From a virus (lineage: Duplodnaviria; Heunggongvirae; Uroviricota; Caudoviricetes): DNA of 28,139 bases. The first letter of the stretch is position 1, and every line of letters starts with the position of its first letter. The notes beneath the pieces were generated by a model, which had not been told where the DNA came from, made no database searches, and saw only the letters and a list, made by a program, of their open reading frames with translations. Positions 9,576 through 28,029 of the stretch are shown one piece after another. Both the position numbers and the translations under genes were made by a program. Where the stretch lies: IMG/VR virus record IMGVR_UViG_2744054909_000001, one strand, 5' to 3'.

Positions 9576-9768
9576 TTTCAAATCCAACGACAGACGGCTG
9601 GCATTTAAGTATTGTGAAATATTATCAAATGTAATCATCATTGATTTACAAAAGATACATTTTGCCCCGAAAGGATTCATGTCAGAAACATCAAAAGATG
9701 ATGTTCTATACTGGGAACCATGACAACACGGGCATCTAAAGTGAATATGGTTTGTAATATTGTCTACC

Positions 9769-9981
9769 TCAAAGCGCCACTACATGAACAGCGGCAGGAC
9801 CTTTAGGTCCGTTCTCAATACCAAATTCAACTTCCTGATTCTCAGTTAATGTTTTGAAATCGTTGCTCTGAATTGCTGAGAAATGGACAAACACATCTTT
9901 GCTGCCATCTTTCGGCGTGATGAAACCAAAACCTTTTTCAGGGTTAAACCATTTCACTAAACCAGTCATTTTGTTAGACAT
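9769..9981 (-). CDS. cspI: Cold-shock protein CspI-like (70 aa)
   Basis: [70 protein letters not shown] is a CspA-family cold-shock domain. Confidence 0.9.
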
Positions 9982-10343
9982 AATTATTACCTTTTGAAGA
10001 AATTAGCCCTTGGGCAGAATGGTCCGAAAAAAAATATCAGAGAGAAAAACCAACAAGGAAATCTCAAGAGGTACAAATAATAAAATTATAACAATGACTG
10101 CTTCAGATAAATTTGTAACAAACCAGAACACCATTAACGCATGATTAACCACCCATAGCAAGGATTACTTTTGTAAAGAAAAACACAGCAATGAAAGAAT
10201 AGCTTTATTTATTAATAAAACGTGTCATTCTGATTAAGACCTTTTATCTTACCCTTAAGATTTCAGGAATTTTGGCTCATGGAAGAGTCCTTTTTATTTA
10301 AATTTTACATTCCGCGATGTAAATGTTCCGATTTAATATTACC

Positions 10344-12372: not shown

Positions 12373-12652
12373 AGATTGTGGTGCTTTTTGTGGGAGTCAT
12401 CCACTTACGCACTTTGTTTTGCCATGCCAGCAGTTAGCTTCTGCTGTAAAACTATTCATGCAGCAAACCTGCACTTCACCACAATGGTTAGCATACTTTT
12501 CCTGATTAAGATTTTGCCAAATATGCTAGCCATTGTTTCATGTATTGGACCTCCTTACTTTTTATTAAAGAGATCCAATATTCACTACTCTGTCCGTATC
12601 TCTACTCAGGCATCAGCCTTCTTCGTTATCGTATACAGACGAGCGATGAATT

Positions 12653-12868
12653 TTAATCAGTAATGATGACATTTGCTGCTGCAGGACCTTTAGCACCACT
12701 CTCTATAGAGAAGGTAACCTTTTGACCTTCAAATAAGGTTCGATAATTATCATTCTGAATCGCAGAAAAATGCACAAACACATCTTTACTACCATCAACA
12801 GGAGAAATAAAGCCGAAACCTTTATCAGCGTTAAACCATTTTACTAAACCAGTCATTTTATTTGACAT
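12653..12868 (-). CDS. cspB: Cold-shock protein CspB-like (71 aa)
   Basis: [71 protein letters not shown]. Confidence 0.9.
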
Positions 12869-13168
12869 TCTACATTCCTTAACTTGAGCCTTTCGGCATA
12901 AATGGTTTGCATAACAGAAACGACTTCGTACTTAATTGGAGAGACTCAAAGAAGGAATAAGTGAATAACACCTGAAATGAGAACTGCTTTAGTAAACTAC
13001 TTCGTATATCGTCTGTTCTTCAAACCGACGCAATCATTAACGCATAGTTGAACATATGAAGCAATGTTTATTTTAGACATCCAGCCATCTTCAACCCCAT
13101 CAAAAAACTATAGCTTTCTTCAGGAACGTGTGTATAGTGCGCCAAGTTATCAGTATTAAGGAATTTTT

Positions 13169-14555: not shown

Positions 14556-14568
14556 GCTCGTTCTCCAC

Positions 14569-15618: not shown

Positions 15619-15619
15619 G

Positions 15620-15898
15620 TTACCTCCAGATCCGTTGCTGGAAAGTGCGGGACGCACGTGGTGGGCGTTCGGAATAAGGCAGCCTGACAGAGATTATCCA
15701 GTGCCGATAGTCGAGACTGAGAGCTTTCTTAACCTCGAACCCGCGCCTGCGGTAAGAATGAATCAGCCATTCGGCCTGTTCTGCAGTGCATGGAGGGTGC
15801 TGGAACCATTCAGACTTGAATGCGTGAGAATACCGCCCGTGCGTGCAGGCAAGAACGGGCGAATTATCAGAATTGTAATATTTTGCGTTGCGTGCCAT
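15620..15898 (-). CDS. Hypothetical prophage protein (92 aa), translationally coupled to ydfU
   Basis: MARNAKYYNSDNSPVLACTHGRYSHAFKSEWFQHPPCTAEQAEWLIHSYRRRGFEVKK..; GGAG ribosome-binding site; its stop is 1 nt from the ydfU start. Confidence 0.55.
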   Translation of the reverse strand: MARNAKYYNSDNSPVLACTHGRYSHAFKSEWFQHPPCTAEQAEWLIHSYRRRGFEVKKALSLDYRHWIISVRLPYSERPPRASRTFQQRIWR

Positions 15899-15964
15899 CG
15901 GTTTTCTCCGGTGGCACGGTGTTACTCAGCGGGAGTTCAGCCCCGCGCAAGATTGTAGATGAGT

Positions 15965-16216
15965 TTATTCTCCTGAAAAAGCAGAAAAGCCAGCTTTTAT
16001 TCCGATCTCTTTCAATGCCTGTAATGAAGTGACAAACTCACCTTCGCGCAAGATAAATCCGTCCGTGACCCGAGCATCCACAAAATTAATTAACGCAGCC
16101 CCATTCTTTCGCAAACACATAATGCGGTAATGACTAACAAGATTTCCATTTTCAACGCACACAGCATAGAGGCCATCTTCACAAAAAATTTTACGCAGTT
16201 CTTCGATGTTCATCAT
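15965..16216 (-). CDS. rem: Rem-like protein (83 aa)
   Basis: MMNIEELRKIFCEDGLYAVCVENGNLVSHYRIMCLRKNGAALINFVDARVTDGFILREGEFVTSLQALKEIGIKAGFSAFSGE; position (between ydfU and hokD) and length match K-12 rem. Confidence 0.7.
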   Translation of the reverse strand: MMNIEELRKIFCEDGLYAVCVENGNLVSHYRIMCLRKNGAALINFVDARVTDGFILREGEFVTSLQALKEIGIKAGFSAFSGE

Positions 16217-16335
16217 CAGAATCCTTCCGGATAATTAGCTCTCCCCTTTAAGGGACCATCCCTCTTATCCCTGCGCGCTACTTAAGTATTTTTGATTCTA
16301 TTCCGGCACCGTCCAGAACTTCAAACGCGTTGAAA

Positions 16336-16365
16336 ATAAAAACAAAAACCCGCCGAAGCGGGTTA
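16336..16365 (-). terminator. Rho-independent terminator downstream of hokD
   Basis: + strand aaaataaaaacaaaaACCCGCcgaaGCGGGTt; on the minus strand the hairpin is followed by a long U-run. Confidence 0.6.
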
Positions 16366-16432
16366 AGTGCGGGTGCGTTGAGGATGCCTGCCACATCAGA
16401 GGTGGCGAGGGATTTCTCCCCCGCCGGGTCTC

Positions 16433-16588
16433 TTACTCCTCAGGTTCGTAAGCTGTGAAGACAGCGACCTCCGTCTGGCCGGTTCGGATTCGTACCTCGC
16501 AGAGGTCTTTCCTCGTTACCAGTGCCGTCACTATGACGGTTAAACAGATGACGATCAGGGCGATTAACATCGCCTTTTGCTGCTTCAT
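16433..16588 (-). CDS. hokD: Hok-family type I toxin HokD (51 aa)
   Basis: Hand translation: MKQQKAMLIALIVICLTVIVTALVTRKDLCEVRIRTGQTEVAVFTAYEPEE. The antisense sok RNA and the mok leader are expected in the upstream 16590-16760 region but were not delimited. Confidence 0.9.
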   Translation of the reverse strand: MKQQKAMLIALIVICLTVIVTALVTRKDLCEVRIRTGQTEVAVFTAYEPEE

Positions 16589-16659
16589 AGCCTGCTTCTC
16601 CTGTCAACGCAAAGCAGAAGTGTCACCTTCGGTGCGAAACAGAGATGTCATGCTTTGGT

Positions 16660-16947
16660 TCAGAGAATGCGTTTGACCGCCTCGCTATATACTTCCGAGC
16701 GTTCTCTTTTCCCAACAGAAATCACGAAAACGACAACTTTCTCGTCTATAACCTGGTATACAAGGCGATAGCCTGAAGACCGGAGCTTAATCTTGTAACA
16801 ATCAGGCATACCACGGAGCTTGTTTGCTTCAATCCGGGGTGACTCAAGTACTTCAACCAGCTTCTTTTTCAACTGTTCACGTACCGTCGAGCCCAGCTTT
16901 CGCCATTCCTTTAGTGCCCGCTCGTCAAAATCCAGAAAATACGCCAT
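16660..16947 (-). CDS. relE: RelE mRNA interferase toxin (95 aa)
   Basis: MAYFLDFDERALKEWRKLGSTVREQLKKKLVEVLESPRIEANKLRGMPDCYKIKLRSSGYRLVYQVIDEKVVVFVISVGKRERSEVYSEAVKRIL. Confidence 0.95.
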   Translation of the reverse strand: MAYFLDFDERALKEWRKLGSTVREQLKKKLVEVLESPRIEANKLRGMPDCYKIKLRSSGYRLVYQVIDEKVVVFVISVGKRERSEVYSEAVKRIL

Positions 16948-17186
16948 CAGAGTTCATCCAGCGTCACACGTACTGGCTTAGGATTACGAAGCCGTTCTTT
17001 CACTATCTCCACAAGTTCAGCATCTTCATCACTCAGGAGTGTCTGTTTGAACGGCAAGCGTTCATTGTCAGCGATATACTCGAGCATGAGACGAAGCGCT
17101 TCAGAAGGAGTTACACCCATTTTTTCAAGCGCGGCGTAAGAACGCGCTTTAAGTTCATCGTCAATACGCAGGTTAATGCTACCCAT
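16947..17186 (-). CDS. relB: RelB antitoxin (79 aa)
   Basis: MGSINLRIDDELKARSYA.LEKMGVTPSEALRLMLEYIADNERLPFKQTLLSDEDAELVEIVKERLRNPKPVRVTLDEL; ATGA overlap with relE. Confidence 0.95.
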   Translation of the reverse strand: MGSINLRIDDELKARSYAALEKMGVTPSEALRLMLEYIADNERLPFKQTLLSDEDAELVEIVKERLRNPKPVRVTLDEL

Positions 17187-17196
17187 GTCTTACACC

Positions 17197-17224
17197 TCTT
17201 GTAATTACAAATGTCATTACAAGT
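17197..17224. promoter_or_regulatory. relBE operator/promoter region (relO-like palindromes)
   Basis: Perfect 12-bp palindrome TTGTAATTACAA followed by TGTCATTACAAG, immediately upstream of the relB start. Confidence 0.5.
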
Positions 17225-17516
17225 ATCGCACTACAACATGCTTAGGGCAAGTCACGAAGGAAGTCAGAAAGTAGTCGTAAGAACGGTGATCACTGTCCGC
17301 TTTGTGCCAGGAGCAGCCATTGCTAAGTCCATCCTGTATTGTGCAGGTCAGCTCGTTTTTAAAGAGTCCGGCCATCATCTTACTGGTACAGACACCATAT
17401 ACTTTGTGACGGTCAGGCTACATATGCACAACTCAACTTATTCATCTATTTTTTGCTTTAGCATGTCAGTGTTGCTTTCTCGTCGGCGGGTGAGCGGTGA
17501 CCTGACCTGTCGATAA
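17211..17516 (+). CDS. ydfV: YdfV-like protein (101 aa), doubtful coding
   Basis: The 101-aa length and position match K-12 ydfV, but the start codon lies inside the relO operator and the sequence is low-complexity. Confidence 0.4.
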   Translation: MSLQVSHYNMLRASHEGSQKVVVRTVITVRFVPGAAIAKSILYCAGQLVFKESGHHLTGTDTIYFVTVRLHMHNSTYSSIFCFSMSVLLSRRRVSGDLTCR

Positions 17517-17718
17517 AGGAACGTAACACGTTTTATGCAACACCCGCATGCGGCAGAAAATTATTGCCGAACGTTTACCCCTGTCAACAAGCTTTACTTT
17601 CTGAGGCGCGCCAGCCCGCGAGGAAAACAATCTGAACATCAAACAATTAATGACACAAGAAATACGATTAAAGATTTTTTTGTGCATGCCGATAGTGCTT
17701 TTTTAAAAGGAGAAATCT

Positions 17719-18051
17719 ATGTCTGTCACAATTCAGGGAAATACCTCAACCGTTATTTCAAACAACTCCGCCCCGGAAGGAACATCAGAAATAGCCAAAA
17801 TCACAAGACAAATTCAGGTGCTGACTGAAAAGCTTGGGAAAATCTCATCGGAAGAGGGGATGACGACACAGCAGAAAAAAGAAATGGCTGCATTGGTACA
17901 GAAGCAAATTGAAAGCCTCTGGGCTCAACTGGAGCAGTTGTTAAGGCAGCAGGCAGAGAAAAAGAATGAAGACGCGACAGTTCAGCCTGATAAAAAAGAA
18001 GAGAAAAAAGACGATACAAATACCGCTGGCACCATTGATATTTACGTCTAA
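17719..18051 (+). CDS. flxA: FlxA-like protein (110 aa)
   Basis: MSVTIQGNTSTVISNNSAPEGTSEIAKITRQIQVLTEKLGKISSEEGMTTQQKKEMAALVQKQIESLWAQLEQLL..; good ribosome-binding site (AAAGGAG). Confidence 0.9.
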   Translation: MSVTIQGNTSTVISNNSAPEGTSEIAKITRQIQVLTEKLGKISSEEGMTTQQKKEMAALVQKQIESLWAQLEQLLRQQAEKKNEDATVQPDKKEEKKDDTNTAGTIDIYV

Positions 18052-18065
18052 GTGACAGCCGTATT

Positions 18066-18089
18066 GTGGCCCTCATCGGGCCACTTTTC
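18066..18089 (+). terminator. Rho-independent terminator of flxA
   Basis: GTGGCCCtcatcGGGCCACttttcg, 15 bp after the flxA stop. Confidence 0.65.
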
Positions 18090-18129
18090 GCCATCAGCCT
18101 TTTCTTTAAAGACATATTATCTTTGTATC

Positions 18130-18179
18130 ATTTCTGATAGTTAACATTACAAGAATTTCTGATAGTTAACATTACAAGA
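18130..18179. repeat. Perfect tandem direct repeat, 2 x 25 bp (ATTTCTGATAGTTAACATTACAAGA)
   Basis: Read directly at 18130-18154 and 18155-18179; each unit contains the motif AGTTAACATTAC, whose reverse complement recurs near 19974-20012 on the other side of the transposase gene. Confidence 0.9.
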
Positions 18180-18512
18180 TATAAGTAATGGACGCACTCC
18201 CAATTAGTCTATTTAAATCGCCACGAGTTTAACTGACAACCCATGATCAATTATGAATTGCAACTATTTCTGTAGTCACTTTTGTGGGGACAGTCCACAA
18301 AACTGCCAACTTCCGCTTCTTGCTCTTAGCGGACATTAGCATAGGCTATTTACCATAACGCCTCATTACGCGCACCGCCCAGACTGACTCAGCGCGTTTC
18401 TGGCATATCCCCGGTAAAACAAGTAACAAACCACCCGAAAATGAACACCAGAAACGCGACTTAAGAATCTACCCTATGAATGGATATGCACTCAACCGAA
18501 TCGATCTTGGTT

Positions 18513-19826
18513 TCAATCTTTTTTATCGGGATCAGGCTTCTTTTTAGATAACTTCGGGGGCTTAACTTGCTGATGACTTTGCGTTCGGCGCGTAAGCCAG
18601 GGATGGTCAGCTTTAGGTTTAACATAGTATTTTGAGCGTAAATCAATACGGGCATTATCCACTCGTTCATGGACACTCTTTTCATCATCCAGTGGTATAG
18701 GCTCCGGGCCATCAACATACTTTTCCCAGCCCAGCGCTTTCCCGTCATACAGAACGTTAATTTCACCGTCAAAGTTCTCGCATACAGTAACAACCGAATG
18801 CCTAAGTCGATATCCCCGGCCCTCACTGCGTACCTGAAACGCACTGCTTTTGTACTGGAAAGTGAGATTTTTAGACAGAACGCGCTTCGCCTGTAGGCTG
18901 AAGATATAACCCAGTTCCTCTTCAGAATGGTGCACATCAAGATGAGCATTATCAGTAGTACGAGGCGACGTAGCGAACCGGTTGTTATAGGCTTCAATAA
19001 AGGTCGGCAACCATGCATTTGCTGTTTCAATATCACTGATATTCTGAAGCCGCATTTCTTTGACCAGCCTGTCCTGTAGTGTCTGATTGGCGCGCTCTAC
19101 CCGCCCTTTTGCCTGCGGGCTGTTGGCATGGATTGGCTCGATGCCCAGTGTCTTTATCGCACGAGTGAACTGGGTCAGCTCACCTTCCCGCTCTGGGTTA
19201 TTTACCCTGAATATACTGTGTCTATCAGAGTAGAGAGCGAGCGGTACGCCATGATCATTAAGGTAACCCCGGAGGGTTTCCATGTAAGCCCGGGTTGTTT
19301 CAGCAGGCACAAAACGCAACGCCATCAACGCACTGGTGGCATCATCAATGAAAACGATCAGTGTACATCTGGGGCCTCGATTTTCAAACCAGTCATGAGG
19401 TGAGCCATCAATCTGGATCAGTTCACCGTAAGATGGTCGTCGCATGCGGCGTTGATATATACGGGCAATTTTACGACGGCGTTCACGCCATAACCCCTCT
19501 TCTATCATCCACTTTCTGAGAGTTTCAACGGATAAAGATAAACCGTGTATCTCGCGCAATTTTTCGCACGCAAACGTAGGTCCAAAATCAGCGTAACGGC
19601 CTTTGAGGAGTGAAATTACTGTTGCTCTGAATTCAGCAGAAAAGGAATTATTAGGACGCTTTCCACGTCGGTGGGAAACCAGACCAGAAGGCCCTTCATT
19701 TCTATACCGTTGCACCAGACGTTTAACCTGCCGAATAGAAATGCCAATGCGTGCCGCAGCTTGTTCCTGAATAATCTGAAGTCGGTGGAGTTCCTTATGA
19801 CTCATCGTAACAGTCTCTTTGATCAT
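18513..19826 (-). CDS. DDE transposase with N-terminal HTH and rve (integrase-core) domain, 437 aa
   Basis: Catalytic region ..IQIDGSPHDWF.. / ..LYSDRHSIF.. / ..SPQAKGRVERANQTLQDRL.. is the D-D-E (retroviral-integrase-like) signature; size and architecture suggest IS481 or ISNCY family. GGGGGA ribosome-binding site before the first ATG. Confidence 0.8.
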   Translation of the reverse strand: MIKETVTMSHKELHRLQIIQEQAAARIGISIRQVKRLVQRYRNEGPSGLVSHRRGKRPNNSFSAEFRATVISLLKGRYADFGPTFACEKLREIHGLSLSVETLRKWMIEEGLWRERRRKIARIYQRRMRRPSYGELIQIDGSPHDWFENRGPRCTLIVFIDDATSALMALRFVPAETTRAYMETLRGYLNDHGVPLALYSDRHSIFRVNNPEREGELTQFTRAIKTLGIEPIHANSPQAKGRVERANQTLQDRLVKEMRLQNISDIETANAWLPTFIEAYNNRFATSPRTTDNAHLDVHHSEEELGYIFSLQAKRVLSKNLTFQYKSSAFQVRSEGRGYRLRHSVVTVCENFDGEINVLYDGKALGWEKYVDGPEPIPLDDEKSVHERVDNARIDLRSKYYVKPKADHPWLTRRTQSHQQVKPPKLSKKKPDPDKKD

Positions 19827-20160
19827 GAAAAATCCCCCAGAGAATTGTCTGGGGACATTTTAGAATGGTTCAAAGGGGACATTACAGCTTGGTGTTAACA
19901 ATAGCCTGCTTCTCCGTGCCTTTCGGCACGTAAGAGGCTAACCTACATGTGTCTAGCATGAAATTGGCCTCAGATTAATGTTAAGCGTCTTGCAGGACGC
20001 GTAATGTTAACTGGGGCTTTTCTCTATCTGCCGTTGGTGTCCATGCCCGAGGCAGATAGCCTCAAGCACCCGCAGTCATTCTACTTAACTAAGATTTCCC
20101 CGCAAACCGTTTTTGTCCAGCACAGTAAATATCCAACTAAACCAATGGAGTTCGCTGTAT

Positions 20161-20340
20161 TTACCGCCAGTATTCAATGCACATGACCGCCATGAACACC
20201 CCTAAAAAAAGGGCATTTATATATCCAAATATTAATATCAAAACATCAACTTTTTCCATATACCTTGCTGTGAAGATGATGGGCATACATGATGCGAACA
20301 ACCAGAACGCAACAAACAAAAACTGCAATGCGTTTTTCAT
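20161..20340 (-). CDS. Small two-helix membrane protein (59 aa)
   Basis: MKNALQFLFVAFWLFASCMPIIFTARYMEKVDVLILIFGYINALFLGVFMAVMCIEYWR; strong AGGAGG ribosome-binding site 6 nt before ATG; AT-rich upstream region with promoter-like elements. Confidence 0.5.
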   Translation of the reverse strand: MKNALQFLFVAFWLFASCMPIIFTARYMEKVDVLILIFGYINALFLGVFMAVMCIEYWR

Positions 20341-20589
20341 TATTCCTCCTACAATCAATGTGCAATTACATTTAAACACACCTCAATTTGGCCGGACATA
20401 TAAATATCTAAACCAGAAAAAATCACTTACATAGCGTTACAAACTCTTTAGTCTAAAGGTTCATCGTAAAACATTCCCCATACTTATCAGTCCGTTCCGC
20501 GCCAGGTAGCTCATTGCCTTATCTGGCAACCTGTAATCAGGTTTCCGCTTTTTCAGTTGGCTGGTCGTTTAACCGACATAGTTAATCCA

Positions 20590-21230
20590 TTAATCTAGTT
20601 GCCGGATGTTGGTGGATTTTCGCGTTTTAGTTGTTCATAAAAGTGCACAGCTTTAACCAGTTCTTCTGATGTAACTGGGACTGGTGAGGCAGTGAATAAG
20701 GCCTGAATTTGATAGTTCGGCCTGTCGTTACAATCCTCTTTTTTCGGTACATATTTCCAGTCACCAGACCACTACTTCCCCTGAAAGTCCGTAACGCCTT
20801 TTTTCACGTAGCGATATCGCCATGCCACTGGTTTTGCTTGCCCCGCCGTTTCATGCCCTTCCTGATAATTAATCTCGCTCATTCATCGCCCCACTCATCA
20901 CAATATGCTTCGACCGGAGTTTTTCCCGCTTCATAGTCATCACGCTAGGATTCGACATCAGCAGCACTTCCACCGCGTAACTCACCATAGTCCATTAATA
21001 GTTCATCCCGCTCTTCAAAACTGATGTTATATTTAGCTGAACAAAAATCAGCCACTTTGTTCTTCCTCATCGTCTTTTATTTCGTGGTATGAGTAATTGC
21101 AGTAGTTAAAGAAAATTTCTTATGCTCCGTCATGAATTTCCTCAGGTGTTGCGTCATCGTCCACTTCGAATACATCCTCAAAATCTCCACCAGCTATTCC
21201 CGTTTCAATAATAATTTTGAACTTTCGCAT
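20590..21230 (-). pseudogene. Decayed early-region ORFs (frame-disrupted remnants)
   Basis: Only short ORFs (36-40 codons) on the minus strand; one begins MSEINYQEGHETAGQAKPVAW.. and continues in another frame (..RYRYVKKGVTDFQGK..), suggesting indels. Hand translation, not fully verified. Confidence 0.3.
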
Positions 21231-21492
21231 TTCACTACCGCCCTTTCGGGCGGCCTCCTGATGTTCTGAGGGTGCAGAAATCCATCCGGTTAAGGATTAA
21301 ATTTTATTTACAGAACTGAATTTAATTATTCAGATATACGTATCTGTAGCCTTACGAATCTACTCACTGGATGCCTCTTTCATAAAAATAATCCAGTGGG
21401 TTTTATCGTTTTTTCCCTGTTCGTTGACAGATAACAGGTTTTCTGTCTGTCAGTGCCAGAATCTGGCTTACCGGTATTTGCGTTTCATTCCA

Positions 21493-21849
21493 TTAAAAAA
21501 TCAGAACGCCGTGCGGCCTCAACACCCGAAAGGCTTCTTTAAATCTCTGTCGCGAATCATCACGCCAGGCATCTTTATTCAGCCGTCCATATTTCTTTCC
21601 CATCCAGGCGTTATCACCAACACTCTCAAGATGCGGAGGGTCTAATACAACCATCGAAAAAGATGCGTCTGCAAATGATAATGCACGAAAATCTGCGATA
21701 ATGTCAGGGCTGATAATCAAGCGTCTCCCATTGCGTAATGTGTATCCTTCTTTTCTGATATCGCTGAATATCGCCCGTTCGTCAGACTTATCGAACCAGA
21801 ACATGCGGCTGCCACAGCACATATCAAGAATGGTTGCCGGTGCACTCAC
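21493..21849 (-). CDS. Methyltransferase-like protein, short (118 aa) with atypical DPPH motif
   Basis: SAM-binding-like motif ILDMCCGSRMF then VVLDPPH and ..EAFRVLRPHGVLIF, resembling motifs I and IV of amino-methyltransferases with the usual aromatic after DPP replaced by His. Ends abruptly without a target-recognition domain. Confidence 0.55.
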   Translation of the reverse strand: MSAPATILDMCCGSRMFWFDKSDERAIFSDIRKEGYTLRNGRRLIISPDIIADFRALSFADASFSMVVLDPPHLESVGDNAWMGKKYGRLNKDAWRDDSRQRFKEAFRVLRPHGVLIF

Positions 21850-22268
21850 TGCGCCACGTCCTGAAAATTACCCTGATAGAAAGCCAGTATGCGCTGCATA
21901 ACTTCGCTCTTCCGGCACTCGCGACAGATTATGTTTAGGCGACTGTCGTAGCGACGTATTTCTCCGTCAGGTGATGACCAGATAAGGTCCGGATCAACCA
22001 CAGCAGGTTTCTTCACCTTTGCCCTCGAGAGTTTTTTGCGGGCGTTTTGCCAGTCCTTACGCGCCTGTTCAGAGGGGAATAACCCGTAGCCGGAGTTGTA
22101 TACATCGCCACTGGCTACCAGCTCTCTGGCAAGAACGCTCATCAGATATCTAGTCGCACCTGTTTTAGCTTCCAGTTGCCGTAACGTCTCACGGCCGCTC
22201 TGGCGCACGAGTTCCACCACCTGCCATTTAATTTTTTCCCGCTCTTCTTGTGTAAAAACTTTTGCCAC
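21846..22268 (-). CDS. Hypothetical protein (140 aa, GTG start), translationally coupled to the methyltransferase-like gene
   Basis: AAGGGGGA ribosome-binding site before the GTG; MAKVFTQEEREKIKWQVVELVRQSGRETLRQLEAKTGATRYLMSVLARELVASG.. (HTH-like N-terminus), C-terminal CRECRKS; ATGA overlap with the downstream gene. Confidence 0.55.
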   Translation of the reverse strand: MAKVFTQEEREKIKWQVVELVRQSGRETLRQLEAKTGATRYLMSVLARELVASGDVYNSGYGLFPSEQARKDWQNARKKLSRAKVKKPAVVDPDLIWSSPDGEIRRYDSRLNIICRECRKSEVMQRILAFYQGNFQDVAQ

Positions 22269-22308
22269 AAGTCCCCCTTAAAATTACCTCATGACCTGAA
22301 ATCAACAC

Positions 22309-23274
22309 TTATCCTCTGAAACCAGGCGGAATTTCTGTATCCGGTTCAGAAATATGATTAACACAACGCTGTACAGGTGAACGTCCCAGGCGGATGACCA
22401 GTTCGTCCCATTTTTCGCGGAGCTTTGACGGGCTCATGATGTTTTTTACCCAGAATGGATCTCGCTGAACCCGACCAAACATTTCGCAAATTTGTCTGTG
22501 GCTTCTGCCATCCAGCATCCGCATTGTGCGCACGTCATTGGCCCAGGCAGTCCAGTTAGGCTCTTTTGGTCGCATGATCTCGCCATCATCACTGGCTGCC
22601 TGTTCGTAGAGACCCACGATCCGCCCCCAGATCCACTGCGCACACGCCAAATCCTCCCTGCTACCCCACTGGCGTTTTTTCGCACTAAACACAACCGCGT
22701 CGGAGTTCCGGGTTAAAAAATCCTGTTCAGTCGTCTGCGGGTCCGGTTGCGAAGCTTCCGGACGAAAAGTGTTTTTATTCTCTGTAGTAATCTCTGTTGT
22801 ATTCTCTGTAAGATCATCAGGCCATTTTGACCCGATGACATTGGGTCGTTTTGAACCAATGGAGCGTTTCATTTTGACCTCTTCCATCGTGTCATTTTGA
22901 CCTGATGGAGCGGCGCATTTTGAACCGATGGATTCGCTCAATTTGCCACCATCTAAAAGCTCGCTCCCATAGTTGATCGTGTAGAAATTGGTCATATCGC
23001 GCTTTGATTTATTGAGCTTTTCACAACGCAAAAGCCCCAGCGTTTTCAGACTTGCAAACGCGCGCTTTAACGTTGACTCTGACCAGAATGGGAACTGTTC
23101 CAGCCATTGTTCCGTTGTGTTATAAATCCAGCGAACACCATCACATTCCATGCCGGAGTTGGTATCTCTCAACCAGTAGTGCAGTTGTTGCAAAACAATG
23201 GCTTCGTTTAAGCCAATTTTCATTGCCAGCTGCGTGTTTATAACCAGTGGGCGTTCAGCAAAAAGAAGGCTCAT
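22309..23274 (-). CDS. Phage replication-initiation protein (O-like / YdaU-like), about 321 aa
   Basis: N-terminal MSLLFAERPLVINTQLAMKIGLNEAIVLQQLHYWLRDTNSGMECDGVRWIYNTTEQWLEQFPFWSESTLKRAFASLKTLGLL is a winged-helix replication-initiator N-domain of the lambda O type; sits in the cro-O-P position. ORF track start (23328) is a TTG; ATG at 23274 used. Confidence 0.65.
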   Translation of the reverse strand: MSLLFAERPLVINTQLAMKIGLNEAIVLQQLHYWLRDTNSGMECDGVRWIYNTTEQWLEQFPFWSESTLKRAFASLKTLGLLRCEKLNKSKRDMTNFYTINYGSELLDGGKLSESIGSKCAAPSGQNDTMEEVKMKRSIGSKRPNVIGSKWPDDLTENTTEITTENKNTFRPEASQPDPQTTEQDFLTRNSDAVVFSAKKRQWGSREDLACAQWIWGRIVGLYEQAASDDGEIMRPKEPNWTAWANDVRTMRMLDGRSHRQICEMFGRVQRDPFWVKNIMSPSKLREKWDELVIRLGRSPVQRCVNHISEPDTEIPPGFRG

Positions 23275-23776
23275 AATTCCATCCAGCTTTTTGTTGGTAT
23301 TGCTGTCGATACGCAAGTTTGAAAGCAATTGCTTTTTCTATAAGTTCGTCAGTTTCACGATCCACTACGGCAGGATCAGCAAAAAGCAGTCCGGACTCCA
23401 CCACATCGCCATATTCTTTGTTTAACCCGGCGATCATGCACGTGATGCTTTTTCCGTCAGTAATTTCACGATACAACCTGAAATCATTAATCCGGATAGC
23501 CTCCATAATTGCAGGCACTAGCGCCGTGAACTTTTCACGCTTATCCCTGGTGTCGATAGCCTTCCAGCGTTCAAATATCTTCACTCGATTAACGCCAAGC
23601 GCTCGCTGATCAATCGCGCCACCTTCATATGTGACACGCTGAACATCGATGTTCGGGCGCTCTTTCAAAGCCCAGAATGCTTCAGTGATTAATATCGTCG
23701 CCTGCTCCTGTGTCATTCCTGGTCGACATATCCAGGCATCCAGAGCCTCACGAGCCTGTTCAGGAGTGATTTTCAT
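23255..23776 (-). CDS. YdaT-like protein (173 aa)
   Basis: Lies immediately downstream of the cro-like dicC, as ydaT follows ydaS in Rac; shares the ..ALVPAIMEAI.. pattern with YdaT as I recall it. Confidence 0.5.
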   Translation of the reverse strand: MKITPEQAREALDAWICRPGMTQEQATILITEAFWALKERPNIDVQRVTYEGGAIDQRALGVNRVKIFERWKAIDTRDKREKFTALVPAIMEAIRINDFRLYREITDGKSITCMIAGLNKEYGDVVESGLLFADPAVVDRETDELIEKAIAFKLAYRQQYQQKAGWNYEPSFC

Positions 23777-23990
23777 TGTTCAACCGCCCCGCCCGCTTCG
23801 TCTTACGATATTCATCATAAACTTTGGGATCATACTGAAGCTCCCCGCCAGATGCCTCCTGTAGACGCATCGCGCGACCTTCGGGAACTAAATCCCCTTT
23901 CCAGCTATAAAGCGAAGCCAAACGAATACCTGCTGCTTGTGCAAGTTTTGTTTTTGAACCGAAATACAAAAGAGCGTCAGTTTTAAGCAT
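23760..23990 (-). CDS. dicC: DicC, Cro-like repressor of division inhibition (76 aa)
   Basis: MLKTDALLYFGSKTKLAQAAGIRLASLYSWKGDLVPEGRAMRLQEASGGELQYDPKVYDEYRKTKRAGRLNNENHS. Confidence 0.9.
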   Translation of the reverse strand: MLKTDALLYFGSKTKLAQAAGIRLASLYSWKGDLVPEGRAMRLQEASGGELQYDPKVYDEYRKTKRAGRLNNENHS

Positions 23991-24004
23991 TTAAAACACC
24001 TTTA

Positions 24005-24024
24005 TTGTTAGTCATAACTAACAA
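24005..24024. promoter_or_regulatory. Operator palindrome in the dicC-dicA divergent control region
   Basis: TTGTTAGTcataACTAACAA is a perfect 8-bp inverted repeat; a second partial palindrome TAGCattaGCTA lies at about 24058-24069. Confidence 0.55.
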
Positions 24025-24073
24025 GATAGATGTTAACAAAAACATAGTCAATACGATTTAGCATTAGCTAACT

Positions 24074-24481
24074 ATGGAAACAAAAAATTTAACTATCGGC
24101 GAACGCATCAGGTATCGTCGGAAAAACCTCAAACACACCCAAAGGTCTCTTGCTAAAGCCCTGAAAATCTCCCATGTGTCTGTATCACAATGGGAACGGG
24201 GTGATAGTGAACCTACAGGGAAGAACCTTTTTGCCCTCAGCAAAGTATTGCAATGCTCACCAACATGGATTCTATTTGGCGATGAAGACAAGCAACCAAC
24301 ACCACCTGTTGAGAAGCCAGTTGCCTTATCCCCCAAAGAACTAGAGCTCCTTGAGCTGTTTAATGCACTGCCAGAATCAGAACAGGATACCCAGCTCGCC
24401 GAAATGCGAGCTCGAGTAAAAAACTTCAATAAACTCTTTGAAGAATTACTAAAAGCCCGTCAGCGGACAAATAAAAGATAA
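24074..24481 (+). CDS. dicA: DicA, cI-like HTH repressor (135 aa)
   Basis: METKNLTIGERIRYRRKNLKHTQRSLAKALKISHVSVSQWERGDSEPTGKNLFALSKVLQCSPTWILFGDED.. is a Xre/cI-type HTH. Confidence 0.95.
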   Translation: METKNLTIGERIRYRRKNLKHTQRSLAKALKISHVSVSQWERGDSEPTGKNLFALSKVLQCSPTWILFGDEDKQPTPPVEKPVALSPKELELLELFNALPESEQDTQLAEMRARVKNFNKLFEELLKARQRTNKR

Positions 24482-24647
24482 CATCATCAATGAGTTATCT
24501 TTTACCACATCAATTATGTTAGCTATAGCATACAAAATCACTTGACCGATATGTTAGTCATGGCTAATCTTGTTTGCATCAACACACCGCACGGTGTTCT
24601 CAGCAAACAGTTCCGCTACCCCAGCGTTAAGGGGAAATGAGGTCAGC

Positions 24648-24803
24648 ATGGATACTATCGATCTTGGCAACAACGAATCTCTGGTGTACGGCGTGTTTCC
24701 AAACCAGGACGGCACGTTCACCGCAATGACGTATACCAAAAGCAAAACGTTTAAAACCGAAAATGGTGCCCGTCGCTGGCTGGAAAGAAACTCAGGTGAG
24801 TGA
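24648..24803 (+). CDS. ydfA: YdfA-like small protein (51 aa)
   Basis: MDTIDLGNNESLVYGVFPNQDGTFTAMTYTKSKTFKTENGARRWLERNSGE; ribosome-binding site AAGGGGAAATGAGG upstream. Confidence 0.85.
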   Translation: MDTIDLGNNESLVYGVFPNQDGTFTAMTYTKSKTFKTENGARRWLERNSGE

Positions 24804-24804
24804 T

Positions 24805-24933
24805 ATGGATTTCGACACAATCATGGAAAAGGCTTACGAAGAATACTTCGAAGGCCTTGCCGAAGGCGAAGAAGCTCTCAGCTTCAGTGAGTTTAAACAG
24901 GCGCTTTCCAGTTCGGCAAAATCTAACGGCTGA
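24805..24933 (+). CDS. ydfB: YdfB-like small protein (42 aa)
   Basis: Hand translation: MDFDTIMEKAYEEYFEGLAEGEEALSFSEFKQALSSSAKSNG; starts 2 nt after the ydfA stop. Confidence 0.8.
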   Translation: MDFDTIMEKAYEEYFEGLAEGEEALSFSEFKQALSSSAKSNG

Positions 24934-24962
24934 TAAGCGAAACAGCACCGCGAGGAATCAGT

Positions 24963-25181
24963 ATGCAGAAACGAGAACCCGTCATCATCGCGCCAGACTA
25001 TACCGATGATGAACTTTATGAGTGGATGCGCCAGAAAATTAATGCAGCGCAGGATCTGAAATGGGCTAATGAAGCCAGGGCTAAGCAGGCTGAAAATCTG
25101 TCCGCTCTGGAGCAGGATATCACCAATCTGGAAAAAGCAGCGGCATTAAGCATTGCCAGAATGATTACATACCCGCGTTAG
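24963..25181 (+). CDS. ydfC: YdfC-like protein (72 aa)
   Basis: MQKREPVIIAPDYTDDELYEWMRQKINAAQDLKWANEARAKQAENLSALEQDITNLEKAAALSIARMITYPR. Confidence 0.85.
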   Translation: MQKREPVIIAPDYTDDELYEWMRQKINAAQDLKWANEARAKQAENLSALEQDITNLEKAAALSIARMITYPR

Positions 25182-25521
25182 TAGCTAATCAACAAAGCTA
25201 AGGTTAGTAATTAAGGAGTTCTCCACGGGTGAGGTGGAGTGCGTGCGCCGGACACGGGTGCGCATCCGGAACTGACAGTTTACTGAAAGGATATTTCCCT
25301 GAAAAGTCAGACCATAACGCGAAAGCGCACGGCGAGGTAGCTGGTTCATAGATAGCCTGTCGTTAAATTTTCGTCGACCGTGCGCTTCCGGTTGTGGCAA
25401 CCCGCGAAATGGCGCGGCGGTAAGTATGGCGGGGTTATTCCTTCCCCGTTGAGGACACCGGGTTGTCAGGTTGACCATACGCTTAAGTGACAACCCCGCT
25501 GCAACGCCCTCTGTTATCAAT

Positions 25522-25574
25522 TTTCTGGTGACGTTTGGCGGTATCAGTTTTACTCCGTGACTGCTCTGCCGCCC
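25522..25574 (+). ncRNA. dicF: DicF small regulatory RNA (53 nt; Hfq-dependent sRNA that represses ftsZ translation)
   Basis: TTTCTGGTGACGTTTGGCGGTATCAGTTTTACTCCGTGACTGCTCTGCCGCCC followed by TTTTT matches the DicF sequence as I recall it, with its terminator hairpin; it is processed from the ydfABC-dicF-dicB transcript. Confidence 0.85.
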
Positions 25575-25748
25575 TTTTTAAAGTGAATTTTGTGATGTGG
25601 TGAATGCGGCTGAGCGCACGCGGAACAGTTAAAACCAAAAACAGTGTTATGGGTGGATTCTCTGTATCCGGCGTTAATTGTTAACTGGTTAACGTCACCT
25701 GGAGGCACCAGGCACTGCATCACAAAATTCATTGTTGAGGACGCGATA

Positions 25749-25937
25749 ATGAAAACGTTATTACCAAACGTTAATACGTCTGAAGGTTGTTTTGAAATTG
25801 GTGTCACTATCAGTAACCCAGTATTTACTGAAGATGCCATTAACAAGAGAAAACAAGAACGGGAGCTATTAAATAAAATATGCATTGTTTCAATGCTGGC
25901 TCGTTTACGTCTGATGCCAAAAGGATGTGCACAATGA
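25749..25937 (+). CDS. dicB: DicB cell-division inhibitor (62 aa; acts with MinC)
   Basis: MKTLLPNVNTSEGCFEIGVTISNPVFTEDAINKRKQERELLNKICIVSMLARLRLMPKGCAQ. Confidence 0.9.
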   Translation: MKTLLPNVNTSEGCFEIGVTISNPVFTEDAINKRKQERELLNKICIVSMLARLRLMPKGCAQ

Positions 25938-26125
25938 ATTCAGCATTTGTGCTTGTTCTGACAGTTTTTCTTGTTTCCGGAGAGCCAGTTGATATTGCAG
26001 TCAGTGTTCACAGGACAATGCAGGAGTGTATGACTGCAGCAACCGAACAGAAAATTCCCGGTAACTGTTACCCGGTCGATAAAGTTATTCACCAGGATAA
26101 TATCGAAATCCCGGCAGGTCTTTAA
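25934..26125 (+). CDS. ydfD: YdfD-like lysis protein (63 aa, N-terminal transmembrane helix)
   Basis: MNSAFVLVLTVFLVSGEPVDIAVSVHRTMQECMTAATEQKIPGNCYPVDKVIHQDNIEIPAGL; ATGA overlap with dicB. Confidence 0.85.
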   Translation: MNSAFVLVLTVFLVSGEPVDIAVSVHRTMQECMTAATEQKIPGNCYPVDKVIHQDNIEIPAGL

Positions 26126-26217
26126 AACAGTTCCGTAATAAATATCCGGTTTCATTCTTATATGCCAGCAATGGCAGGGATTTGTTCATCCTTAAATCTG
26201 TCATGAGGTTAAAACAA

Positions 26218-28029
26218 ATGAGTAAAGTCTTTATTTGCGCCGCTATTCCTGACGAACTGGCAACAAGGGAAGAAGGCGCTGTGGCTGTAGCCACAGCCAT
26301 TGAAGCTGGCGACGAACGCCGTGCTCGAGCAAAATTTCACTGGCAATTCCTGGAACATTATCCGGCTGCTCAGGACTGCGCTTATAAATTTATTGTCTGC
26401 GAGGATAAACCTGGCATACCCCGCCCTGCCCTCGATTCATGGGATGCTGAATATATGCAGGAAAACCGCTGGGATGAGGAGTCTGCTTCTTTTGTCCCGG
26501 TTGAGACTGAATCCGATCCGATGAACGTCACTTTTGACAAGCTGGCCCCTGAAGTACAGAACGCTGTCATGGTTAAGTTCGACACATGTGAAAACATCAC
26601 CGTTGATATGGTTATTAGCGCACAGGAATTGTTGCAGGAAGACATGGCAACATTCGACGGACATATCGTTGAAGCGTTGATGAAAATGCCAGAAGTTAAC
26701 GCCATGTATCCGGAGCTTAAGTTGCACGCCATTGGGTGGGTTAAGCATAAATGTATTCCTGGTGCTAAATGGCCCGAAATTCAGGCAGAGATGCGCATCT
26801 GGAAAAAACGTCGCGAAGGTGAACGCAAGGAAACCGGAAAATACACGTCTGTTGTTGATCTCGCCCGCGCCAGAGCCAATCAACAGTACACTGAAAATTC
26901 AACAGGAAAAATCAGCCCGGTCATTGCTGCCATTCATCGCGAATACAAGCAGACATGGAAAACACTGGATGACGAACTGGCCTACGCTCTCTGGCCTAGT
27001 GATGTGGATGCCGGAAACATTGACGGCAGCATCCATCGCTGGGCAAAAAAAGAAGTTATCGACAACGACCGCGAAGACTGGAAGCGTATCTCGGCATCAA
27101 TGCGCAAACAGCCTGATGCCCTTCGCTACGACCGCCAAACTATTTTTGGCCTTGTCCGTGAGCGTCCGATCGACATTCACAAAGATCCCGTAGCACTGAA
27201 CAAATATATCTGCGAATACCTGACGACAAAGGGCGTGTTTGAGAATGAAGAAACAGACCTGGGCACTGTTGATGTTCTCCAGTCATCAGAAACACAAACT
27301 GATGCAGTGGAAACTGAGGTATCTGATATCCCAAAAAATGAAACCGCGCCGGAAGCTGAACCATCTGTAGAGCGTGAGGGGCCGTTCTATTTCCTCTTCG
27401 CAGATAAGGACGGAGAAAAATACGGTCGCGCAAACAAACTCTCTGGTCTGGATAAGGCACTGGCTGCTGGCGCCACTGAAATCACAAAAGAAGAATATTT
27501 TGCCCGAAAAAATGGCACATACACGGGCTTACCGCAAAATGTAGATACCGCTGAAGATTCAGAACAACCAGAGCCGATAAAAGTTACCGCTGACGAAGTA
27601 AACAAAATTATGCAGGCAGCCAATATCAGCCAGCCTGACGCCGATAAGTTGCTTGCTGCATCACGTGGTGAATTTGTTGAAGGGATTAGTGACCCGAATG
27701 ATCCGAAATGGGTTAAGGGGCTCCAGACCCGCGATTCTGTGAACCAGAACCAGCATGAATCGGAACGGAACTACCAAAAAGCGGAACAAAACAGTCCAAA
27801 TGCGTTACAAAACGAGCCAGAAACGAAACAGCCTGAACCAGTAGCGCAACAGGAAGTGGAAAAAGTCTGCACCGCCTGCGGTCAGACCGGCGGCGGCAAC
27901 TGCCCTGATTGTGGCGCGGTGATGGGCGACGCAACATACCAAGAAACATTCGATGAAGAGTATCAGGTTGAAGTTCAGGAAGATGATCCGGAGGAAATGG
28001 AAGGCGCTGAACTGATCCTACCCACGTAA
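26218..28029 (+). CDS. ydfE: YdfE-like large acidic protein with C-terminal zinc ribbon, 3' end disrupted by IS3 (603 aa as read)
   Basis: ORF 26182-28029; start assigned to the Met preceded by GAGG. Highly acidic, with CTACGQTGGGNCPDCGAVMGD near the C-terminus. The last 17 nt and the stop codon lie inside the IS3 terminal repeat, so the native C-terminus is missing. Confidence 0.7.
   Translation: MSKVFICAAIPDELATREEGAVAVATAIEAGDERRARAKFHWQFLEHYPAAQDCAYKFIVCEDKPGIPRPALDSWDAEYMQENRWDEESASFVPVETESDPMNVTFDKLAPEVQNAVMVKFDTCENITVDMVISAQELLQEDMATFDGHIVEALMKMPEVNAMYPELKLHAIGWVKHKCIPGAKWPEIQAEMRIWKKRREGERKETGKYTSVVDLARARANQQYTENSTGKISPVIAAIHREYKQTWKTLDDELAYALWPSDVDAGNIDGSIHRWAKKEVIDNDREDWKRISASMRKQPDALRYDRQTIFGLVRERPIDIHKDPVALNKYICEYLTTKGVFENEETDLGTVDVLQSSETQTDAVETEVSDIPKNETAPEAEPSVEREGPFYFLFADKDGEKYGRANKLSGLDKALAAGATEITKEEYFARKNGTYTGLPQNVDTAEDSEQPEPIKVTADEVNKIMQAANISQPDADKLLAASRGEFVEGISDPNDPKWVKGLQTRDSVNQNQHESERNYQKAEQNSPNALQNEPETKQPEPVAQQEVEKVCTACGQTGGGNCPDCGAVMGDATYQETFDEEYQVEVQEDDPEEMEGAELILPT

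What the first reader, a model, noticed from the sequence alone, without database searches (positions are those of the whole stretch)
21493..22268. Translationally coupled pair: 140-aa HTH-like protein plus a short methyltransferase-like protein with DPPH instead of DPPY
The two genes overlap by ATGA and follow the O-like replication gene. The downstream protein has SAM-binding-like and DPP motifs in gamma-class order, but the aromatic residue after DPP is His and there is no target-recognition domain within its 118 aa. It could be a degenerate phage orphan methyltransferase, or a small SAM-binding protein repurposed for anti-restriction or regulation. I do not recall this pair in K-12 Qin.
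Basis: partly seen in the sequence, partly recalled or inferred. Interest (0 to 1): 0.5.

Follow-up and report, generated by a model that had tools for sequence, protein, structure and literature searches.

The report
Ren-like gene plus dead phage methyltransferase
The 118-aa "methyltransferase" is the front part of a roughly 160-aa phage methyltransferase gene that a stop codon and a frameshift have killed, and its upstream partner is an intact relative of phage lambda's Ren protein, so this is ordinary decay in an old E. coli prophage.

Summary
Both ORFs exist at the stated coordinates, on the minus strand. They overlap by GTGA, not ATGA. The window is a Qin-type (DicA/DicC/DicF) cryptic prophage of a non-K-12 E. 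coli.

The 140-aa protein is a complete DUF977 protein (PF06163). It falls in PHROG 142, the same family as lambda Ren, and sits where ren sits, after the O-like replication gene.

The 118-aa protein belongs to a large family of small phage methyltransferases (PHROG 954; PADLOC "MTase_II" and "oMTase" models). Intact members are 155-170 aa.
- DPPH is invariant across the family, so the His is a family signature, not degeneration.
- Lack of a target-recognition domain is also a family trait.

The window copy is a pseudogene.
- Codon 119, an invariant Lys, is TAA.
- The missing tail (WNETQIPVSQILALTD...THWIIFMKEASSE) is still encoded just downstream, but a 1-nt insertion in an A-run interrupts it.
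- The ORF lacks invariant K119 and W120 and the last two strands of the fold.
- It carries 8 substitutions at conserved sites, against a mean of 0.8 in intact homologues.

The same allele, at 99% identity or more, is in 382 complete E. coli records. The DUF977-methyltransferase pairing is local: 1 of 80 species loci. Ordinary and already annotated.

The parts
21846..22268 (-). Intact DUF977 / Ren-like gene (140 aa, GTG start, Shine-Dalgarno-like AAGGGGGA upstream)
   Evidence: PF06163 E 5.1e-29 over 1-134/134 of the model. PHROG 142 'Ren-like exclusion protein' E 1.6e-47. Lambda Ren itself hits PHROG 142 at E 1.6e-41. Direct BLASTP to lambda Ren aligns only the C-terminal 20 aa (E 2e-6).
21846..21849 (-). 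GTGA overlap: the TGA stop of the DUF977 gene and the GTG start of the methyltransferase ORF
   Evidence: Read directly from the sequence. The same 4-nt overlap is present in the intact loci L002 and L003.
21360..21849 (-). Whole methyltransferase pseudogene (would encode 162 aa if repaired)
   Evidence: DNA alignment with intact alleles. Conceptual repair gives a full-length family member ending ...THWIIFMKEASSE*.
21493..21849 (-). Surviving 5' ORF of 118 codons, annotated in RefSeq as 'class I SAM-dependent methyltransferase' WP_001310834.1
   Evidence: It covers only positions 52-165 of 229 in PHROG 954 and 3-122 of 169 in PADLOC PDLC03288.
21808..21828 (-). Motif I (LDMCCGS), SAM-binding loop
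   Evidence: D9, C12 and G13 are invariant or nearly invariant across the family.
21631..21642 (-). Motif IV, DPPH (residues 70-73)
   Evidence: D70, P71, P72 and H73 are invariant in alignments A3 (49 sequences) and A4 (27 sequences at 40-52% identity).
21493..21495 (-). Premature TAA in place of the invariant Lys119 codon (AAA in intact alleles)
   Evidence: K119 and W120 are invariant family-wide. A sister allele, P0012, has GAA at this codon.
21360..21492 (-). Untranslated 3' remnant. It encodes WNETQIPVSQILALTDRKPVICQRTGK, then continues in the +1 frame with NDKTHWIIFMKEASSE and the original TAG stop at 21360-21362.
   Evidence: Translations in two frames.
21409..21414 (-). A6 run that carries the 1-nt insertion (frameshift)
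   Evidence: GGGAAAAAACGAT in the window against a sequence one base shorter in L002 and L003.
22309..23328 (-). O-like replication initiator upstream of the pair. PGAP starts it at 23274, giving 321 aa.
   Evidence: PHROG 391 'replication initiation O-like' E 1.3e-91. PGAP coordinates.

Best explanation
The locus is the tail end of the early-right (replication) operon of a Qin-type lambdoid cryptic prophage. The gene order is dicC (cro-like), ydaT-like, O-like initiator, ren-like DUF977 gene, small orphan methyltransferase. The DUF977 gene is intact. The methyltransferase gene is dead. Translation that starts at the GTG overlapping the DUF977 stop ends at a TAA that replaced the invariant Lys119 codon. 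Even if that stop were read through, a 1-nt insertion in an A6 run 26 codons later shifts the frame. The most that can be made is a 118-aa fragment. That fragment keeps motif I, the acidic motif II residue and DPPH. It lacks invariant K119 and W120, one helix and strands beta6-beta7 of the seven-stranded class I fold, so it should not fold or methylate (inference from the model of an intact homologue). In intact relatives the roughly 160-aa enzyme is presumably made with the replication genes after derepression. It presumably methylates an exocyclic amino group on nucleic acid, most likely phage DNA, which would give protection from restriction. That inference rests on the (D/N)PP-aromatic type of motif IV and on the PHROG and PADLOC family names, not on experiment. 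The GTGA overlap is ordinary phage operon packing, not a dedicated two-protein system.
For: Shown directly:
- Intact family members are 155-170 aa, and the window ORF stops 44 residues early.
- The missing residues are encoded just downstream, behind the TAA and a +1 frameshift.
- K119, W120 and P138 are invariant across distant members.
- An AlphaFold2 (AF2) model of intact P0013 (pLDDT 93.1) places a helix (127-131) and strands 138-144 and 150-156 after residue 118.
- Truncated alleles depart from 3-9 of 70 conserved columns, against a mean of 0.8 and a maximum of 3 in 49 intact homologues. These changes include F69L next to DPPH and G102R.
- Neighbouring genes downstream are also annotated pseudogenes, and there is a partial IS.
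- The identical pseudogene, with both lesions, is in Shigella flexneri, and 382 complete E. coli records match at 99% identity or more.
- Family identity: PHROG 954 E 8e-87, PADLOC MTase_II E 1e-72 and oMTase E 1e-48 for the intact homologue.
- Pairing is not conserved: DUF977 lies upstream in 1 of 80 species loci, and other E. coli alleles sit in the P22-like early-left region next to Ead/Ea22 genes.
- DUF977 and lambda Ren share PHROG 142.
Against: PGAP does not flag the 118-aa ORF as a pseudogene. Pairwise dN/dS of the 5' part is not clearly raised: 0.18-0.22 for the window allele against 0.16 between intact alleles. Relaxed selection therefore rests on the positions of the changes, not on their rate. 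The allele is 100% conserved in many strains, which vertical inheritance of an old prophage explains but which does not exclude retention. No expression or activity data exist. The substrate of the intact family (DNA, RNA or other) has not been shown by any experiment I could find.
Confidence: 0.9

Rival explanations
1. The 118-aa fragment is a functional truncated protein. It would be a SAM-binding module kept for regulation, SAM sequestration or anti-restriction, made by coupling to the Ren-like gene.
For: The ORF keeps motif I, D30 and DPPH. It has a start coupled to an intact upstream gene. It is identical in hundreds of genomes, and PGAP does not flag it as a pseudogene.
Against: It lacks beta6-beta7 and invariant K119 and W120. 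It has 8 changes at conserved positions, including F69L and G102R. The 3' remnant shows this is recent breakage of a 162-aa gene, not a designed short form. Other short forms in the database are fusions, partial sequences or differently broken copies. K-12 and other strains have deleted the whole segment.
Confidence: 0.04
2. Recoding rescues the gene. Stop-codon readthrough plus ribosomal or transcriptional slippage on the A6 run would yield some full-length active enzyme.
For: The frameshift lies in a homopolymeric A6 run, which is prone to slippage. Allele P0012 has a sense codon (GAA) at 119 and would need only the slippage.
Against: In the window two independent rare events are needed on one message. 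TAA is the most efficient stop codon (general knowledge). Intact alleles have no such run or stop, so this is not a conserved recoding site. Substitutions at invariant sites argue that the product is not under selection.
Confidence: 0.02
3. The lesions are sequencing or assembly errors and the gene is really intact.
For: One lesion lies in a homopolymer run, a common site of such errors.
Against: The same sequence, 100% identical over 488 nt, appears in many independently finished genomes, including ATCC 8739, W, IAI39 and UMNK88, and in S. flexneri. The TAA is a substitution, not a homopolymer error.
Confidence: 0.01
4. This concerns the ancestral function only. The intact family may not be a DNA methyltransferase. 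It could be an RNA, protein or small-molecule methyltransferase, and the database labels would then be guesses.
For: Pfam gives only marginal generic hits to Methyltransf_11 and Methyltransf_25. The best structural matches are a mix of tRNA/rRNA m2G enzymes (Trm11, TrmN, RsmC) and small-molecule methyltransferases, and the only DNA methyltransferase listed is CamA, far down the Foldseek list. There is no target-recognition domain. I found no characterised member.
Against: A DPP-aromatic-type motif IV is typical of enzymes that methylate exocyclic amino groups (general knowledge). Nine of 27 members weakly match PF01555 N6_N4_Mtase. PHROG and PADLOC group the family with DNA methyltransferases. 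The family is carried almost entirely by temperate phages of many phyla, placed among replication and early genes. A different small phage enzyme without a target-recognition domain, PamA (141 aa), is an active GATC adenine methyltransferase (PMC12435837).
Confidence: 0.15

Closest known systems
PHROG 954, PADLOC PDLC03288 (MTase_II) and PDLC03730 (oMTase): small phage and prophage 'class I SAM-dependent' or 'DNA' methyltransferases of 155-170 aa
   Same: Strong profile matches. The window copy keeps motif I (LDxCCG), D30, R32, P48 and the invariant DPPH. The family sits among early and replication genes of temperate phages.
   Different: The window copy is truncated at residue 118 by a nonsense codon and then frameshifted. 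It lacks K119, W120, P138 and beta6-beta7, and it has changes at 8 conserved positions. It is a pseudogene of the family, not a working member.
Intact E. coli prophage alleles (P0010 and P0013, 162 aa; P0017, 161 aa)
   Same: 82-87% identical over the first 118 residues. In the P0010 locus the gene order is the same (DUF977, then the methyltransferase with a 4-nt overlap).
   Different: They are full length. P0017 alleles lie in the P22-like early-left region beside Ead/Ea22 genes, with no DUF977 nearby.
Gamma-class and Dam-like N6-adenine DNA methyltransferases (M.TaqI NPPY; T4/E. coli Dam DPPY)
   Same: Motif I comes before a (D/N)PP-aromatic-type motif IV on a class I fold.
   Different: There is no target-recognition domain, His replaces Tyr/Phe/Trp, and there is no profile match to the Dam families. 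Only weak hits to PF01555 appear, in 9 of 27 relatives. Even the intact protein is about half the size.
PamA of S. aureus mosaic phi11 (141 aa, NPPY, methylates GATC; PMC12435837)
   Same: A very small phage orphan methyltransferase with no separate target-recognition domain, encoded just after the replication module. It shows that such minimal enzymes can be active and sequence-specific.
   Different: It is a different family (PHROG 111). Profile-profile comparison (hhalign) against this family gives probability 0.6%, with similarity only around motif IV. It is an analogue, not a relative.
Lambda Ren, and the DUF977 pseudogene YdaW of K-12 Rac
   Same: The 140-aa protein is a full DUF977 match. 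It shares PHROG 142 with lambda Ren and the position just after the replication genes. Its C-terminal motif (ICRECRKSEVMQRILAFY) matches Ren's (VFKECRQSAAMKRVLAVY).
   Different: It is 44 aa longer than Ren. Pairwise similarity to Ren is limited to 20 C-terminal residues. Escape from Rex exclusion has not been tested for any DUF977 protein that I know of.

Membership tests
Small phage orphan methyltransferase family (PHROG 954; PADLOC PDLC03288 and PDLC03730) | Significant match to the family profiles | tested here: met
   PHROG 954 E 6.7e-58, PDLC03288 E 4.5e-45 and PDLC03730 E 2.8e-33 for the 118-aa ORF.
Small phage orphan methyltransferase family (PHROG 954; PADLOC PDLC03288 and PDLC03730) | Full-length coverage (155-170 aa, through the KW...THW..F.K tail) | tested here: not met
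   The ORF covers 52-165 of 229 (PHROG) and 3-122 of 169 (PADLOC). Intact homologues reach 205 and 163. Most of the 80 species loci measure 155-170 aa.
Small phage orphan methyltransferase family (PHROG 954; PADLOC PDLC03288 and PDLC03730) | Family-wide invariant residues D9, C12, D30, R32, P48, D70-P71-P72-H73, L90, E105, R108, L110, K119, W120, P138 | tested here: not met
   All are present up to L110. K119 is replaced by the stop codon, and W120 and P138 lie in the untranslated remnant.
Class I (Rossmann-like) SAM-dependent methyltransferase fold | Seven-stranded sheet with SAM-binding motif I, an acidic residue after beta2, and motif IV after beta4 | tested here: inconclusive
Dam-like / gamma-class N6-adenine DNA methyltransferases | DPPY/NPPY/NPPF motif IV with an aromatic residue (Tyr, Phe or Trp) | tested here: not met
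   The residue is His, invariant across the family.
Dam-like / gamma-class N6-adenine DNA methyltransferases | Target-recognition domain, and a match to Dam or N6_Mtase profiles | tested here: not met
   No such Pfam hit for the window ORF or its close homologues. Only weak PF01555 hits appear, in 9 of 27 distant members (best E 0.0013). Even the intact protein has no extra domain.
Dam-like / gamma-class N6-adenine DNA methyltransferases | DNA methylation activity | not testable with these tools
   This needs a methylome or a biochemical assay.
DUF977 (PF06163) / Ren-like (PHROG 142) | Full-length profile match | tested here: met
   PF06163 E 5.1e-29 over 1-134/134, and PHROG 142 E 1.6e-47 over 1-115/116.
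DUF977 (PF06163) / Ren-like (PHROG 142) | Same family and same map position as lambda ren | tested here: met
   Lambda Ren hits PHROG 142 at E 1.6e-41. Both genes follow the replication genes.
DUF977 (PF06163) / Ren-like (PHROG 142) | Confers escape from Rex exclusion | not testable with these tools
   This is a phenotype known for lambda ren from the classical literature (my recollection). No data exist for DUF977 proteins.
Dedicated two-gene system (DUF977 + methyltransferase) | Conserved co-occurrence across genomes | tested here: not met
   DUF977 lies upstream in 1 of 80 species-representative loci. P0017 alleles lie in a different phage region.

The most novel reading that the evidence does not exclude
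The 118-aa N-terminal fragment, translated by coupling to the intact Ren-like gene, is stable and still binds SAM. It would then act as a small SAM-binding or dominant-negative factor, for example by interfering with intact methyltransferases of this family brought in by superinfecting phages. That role, rather than mere inheritance, would explain why hundreds of E. coli strains keep the identical allele.
Probability: 0.03. Interest if true: 0.5.

Novelty: already known. Interest (0 to 1): 0.08.

Why it matters
It matters little as a discovery. The practical value is a correction to annotation. WP_001310834.1, named "class I SAM-dependent methyltransferase" in hundreds of RefSeq E. coli genomes, is the 5' fragment of a disrupted gene. 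It should not be counted as a methyltransferase in methylome or restriction-modification inventories.

One side point may deserve follow-up elsewhere. The intact family is a very small (about 160 aa) enzyme with an invariant DPPH and no target-recognition domain. It is conserved at 45-65% identity in temperate phages from Proteobacteria to Firmicutes, Actinobacteria and Bacteroidota. I could find no characterised member. Its target and specificity would be worth testing on an intact copy, not this one.

Tried and rejected
- **First structure prediction.** The alignment held only close homologues (49 sequences, at least 72% identical) and gave pLDDT 55.6, so I discarded it. A rerun with 27 distant members gave pLDDT 93.1.
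- **Sequence-profile search of the PDB.** Nothing scored better than E 1e-4 (generic PH0226), and there were weak hits to Trm-G10 and RsmD. No solved close relative exists.
- **Fold searches.** They returned only the generic class I fold and did not settle the substrate.
No Dam profile hit appeared. The full-length relatives turned out to be about 160 aa, not Dam-sized.
- **PamA as a possible characterised relative.** Rejected. It is in a different PHROG, and hhalign gives probability 0.6%.
- **dN/dS as a test of relaxed selection.** Inconclusive: 0.18-0.22 against 0.16. I used the positions of the changes at conserved columns instead.
- **Literature searches.** Searches for the DPPH motif, the RefSeq protein accessions, PHROG 954, DUF977 and Qin with methyltransferase found nothing relevant.
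- **Defence-system reading of DUF977, the O-like gene and the YdaT-like gene.** No PADLOC hits.
- **Promoter and terminator scan of 20800-24200.** Promoter-like sites were at chance level. Terminator-like sites were more numerous than in shuffles (10 against 3.5), but I did not follow them up.

Full report
**1. Observation**

Listing ORFs across 19500-24500 shows the two reported ORFs on the minus strand. One spans 21846..22268 (140 aa) and the other 21493..21849 (118 aa). Both start with GTG. The raw sequence shows that the 4-nt overlap at 21849..21846 reads GTGA, not ATGA. Upstream on the same strand lie three more genes:
- an O-like replication gene at 22309..23328 (PHROG 391, E 1.3e-91);
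- a YdaT-family gene at 23255..23776;
- a Cro/DicC-like gene at 23760..23990.

A DicA-like repressor gene runs divergently at 24074..24481.

Window 14300-28012 is 99.9% identical, without gaps, to the Qin-type prophage of E. coli ATCC 8739. There PGAP annotates exactly these two CDS as "DUF977 family protein" and "class I SAM-dependent methyltransferase" (WP_001310834.1). Rfam finds DicF at 25523-25574. K-12 MG1655 Qin matches the window up to 18697 and again from 23497, so it lacks the whole segment.

**2. The 118-aa ORF is the 5' part of a broken gene**

A search of 5.8 billion proteins returned 1630 relatives. Apart from near-identical 118-aa copies and obvious fusions or partial sequences, they are 155-170 aa long. 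Aligned with 12 of them, the window protein stops exactly before a conserved tail, KWNETQIPVSQILALTDxKPxIxQRTGKxDKTHWIIFxK.

Translating the DNA just past the stop gives two pieces:
- in frame, TAA followed by WNETQIPVSQILALTDRKPVICQRTGKK;
- in the +1 frame, GKNDKTHWIIFMKEASSE followed by a stop.

A DNA alignment with two intact 162-aa alleles (L002, L003) locates both lesions. The first is TAA instead of AAA at codon 119 (window 21493-21495). The second is one extra base in an A-run (21409-21414). Repairing both in silico restores a complete 162-aa family member. The pseudogene therefore spans 21360..21849. Allele P0012 in the database has GAA at codon 119 but carries the same frameshift, which suggests that the frameshift came first.

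**3. What the truncation removes**

In an alignment of 27 distant members (40-52% identity to the E. coli protein), the invariant positions are D9, C12, D30, R32, P48, D70-P71-P72-H73, L90, E105, R108, L110, K119, W120 and P138. Two conclusions follow. DPPH is a family signature, not a decayed DPPY. The stop codon replaces an invariant lysine.

**4. Signs of decay**

Of 70 columns that are at least 90% conserved among 49 intact close homologues, the window ORF departs at 8: H36Y, C39R, D40N, P58S, F69L, R76S, T94A and G102R. Intact homologues tested by leave-one-out depart at a mean of 0.8 columns, with a maximum of 3. Other alleles that share the stop depart at 3-9 columns. The least decayed of them (P0008, P0005) lack F69L and R76S. 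This fits continued decay after inactivation, or mosaic recombination.

Pairwise dN/dS does not separate the dead allele from live ones: 0.18-0.22 against 0.16. The rate test is therefore inconclusive.

The genes just downstream in ATCC 8739 are also annotated as pseudogenes. They are a DUF7167 gene with an internal stop, a frameshifted hypothetical gene and a partial ISNCY transposase.

**5. Distribution**

Of 5426 complete E. coli genomes, 901 carry a homologue:
- 382 records match the 488-nt pseudogene at 99% identity or more;
- 393 match at 80-90%, and these are intact alleles in other prophages.

A Shigella flexneri genome carries the identical pseudogene with both lesions. Its DUF977 gene has several indels.

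**6. The family**

The intact homologue hits PHROG 954 "DNA methyltransferase" (E 8e-87). It also hits two PADLOC models, "MTase_II" (E 1e-72) and "oMTase" (E 1e-48). Pfam gives only marginal generic hits to Methyltransf_11 and Methyltransf_25. Nine of 27 distant members weakly touch PF01555 N6_N4_Mtase.

The family occurs in 254-256 phage records, at 45-65% identity. The hosts include Streptococcus, Vibrio, Acinetobacter, Porphyromonas, Listeria, Gordonia, Lactobacillus, Enterococcus, Staphylococcus, Salmonella and others. An exhaustive HMMER search found 2038 clusters at the 50% identity level.

I found no paper that characterises a member. That the intact enzyme methylates DNA amino groups is therefore an inference. 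It rests on the type of motif IV, on the database groupings and on the phage context.

A useful analogue is PamA of S. aureus mosaic phi11. It is 141 aa, has an NPPY motif, is encoded after the replication module, and is shown to methylate GATC (PMC12435837). It belongs to another family (PHROG 111; hhalign probability 0.6%). It does show that very small phage methyltransferases without a separate target-recognition domain can be active.

**7. The 140-aa protein**

It matches PF06163 (DUF977) over the full model, at E 5e-29. It also matches PHROG 142 "Ren-like exclusion protein" at E 1.6e-47. Lambda Ren, taken from J02459, hits the same PHROG at E 1.6e-41. The N-terminus of lambda Ren also matches a MarR-type winged-helix PHROG. 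Direct BLASTP between the two proteins aligns only the C-terminal 20 residues (E 2e-6). So "HTH-like" is reasonable, and the gene is the positional and family counterpart of lambda ren. Its function was not tested here. Lambda ren's role in escaping Rex exclusion is my recollection of the classical literature.

**8. Is the pair a system?**

No. Among 80 species-representative genomic loci that encode the methyltransferase, only the Shigella copy has DUF977 upstream. In 34 of the 80 the methyltransferase start overlaps whatever ORF precedes it by NTGA. In E. coli, P0017-type alleles lie in the P22-like early-left region beside Ead/Ea22 genes. One intact lambdoid locus (L002) does have the fuller order: O (DnaT domain), lambda-P-like, DUF1627, DUF977, methyltransferase. 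The overlap reflects compact phage operons.

**9. Verdict**

Full-length orthologues show a 5' fragment of a gene destroyed by a nonsense codon and a frameshift. The locus is an ordinary decaying prophage segment that is already present and annotated in public genomes. Interest is low.

Noticed in passing
window 18698..23496: K-12 MG1655 Qin has no counterpart of this 4.8-kb segment. One deletion edge lies inside the ISNCY-type transposase ORF (18513..19826). K-12's 'ydfW' corresponds to the 3' end of that ORF. The other edge lies inside the YdaT-like gene, and K-12's 'ydfX' looks like its 5' remnant. This pattern suggests an IS-associated deletion.
   Followed up: partly
window 19900..20071 (-): There is an Rfam sok antitoxin match (RF01794, 104 bits, E 7e-23) directly next to the IS transposase start, with no intact Hok-like ORF nearby. 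It is probably a hok/sok locus cut by the IS insertion. It is not annotated in ATCC 8739.
   Followed up: partly
window 22309..23328 (-), compared with L002:3267-5566: This Qin-type prophage has an O-like initiator but no lambda-P-like or DnaC-like loader gene between it and the Ren-like gene. A related intact lambdoid locus has O (DnaT domain), a lambda-P-like gene and DUF1627 before DUF977. The last 20 residues of the window's O-like protein weakly match DnaT (E 0.006).
   Followed up: no
family level: P0013, alignment A4, model mdbde88bc14ac: The intact methyltransferase family is unusually small (about 160 aa) and has few helices N-terminal to beta4 in the AF2 model. It has an invariant LDxCCG...DPPH...KW signature. 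It is 45-65% identical between phages of Proteobacteria, Firmicutes, Actinobacteria and Bacteroidota. It has no dedicated Pfam model, and I found no characterised member. Many distant members carry unrelated N-terminal extensions of 50-150 aa.
   Followed up: partly
P0012, P0008, P0005 and P0004 (alleles of window 21360..21849): There is an allelic series of the pseudogene. P0012 has GAA instead of TAA at codon 119 but the same frameshift. P0008 is a mosaic, with an intact-type 5' part and a 3' part that carries G102R and the stop. P0004 and P0005 are intermediate. This suggests frameshift first, then the nonsense codon, then further decay or recombination.
   Followed up: partly
L039:3530-4001 (Shigella flexneri SFBU0723): The methyltransferase pseudogene is 100% identical to the window, but the adjacent DUF977 gene has several indels, including an 18-nt insertion and single-base gaps. 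In Shigella the Ren-like gene also appears to be decaying.
   Followed up: no
window 20461..20882 and 21048..21230 (-): The AT-rich stretch downstream of the pseudogene holds two more gene wrecks that PGAP annotates in ATCC 8739: a frameshifted hypothetical gene and a DUF7167 gene with an internal stop.
   Followed up: no
window 9742..10127 and 12637..13029 (-): There are two full-length cspA-type thermoregulator leaders (RF01766). They belong to the prophage-borne cold-shock genes (cspI and cspB region).
   Followed up: no
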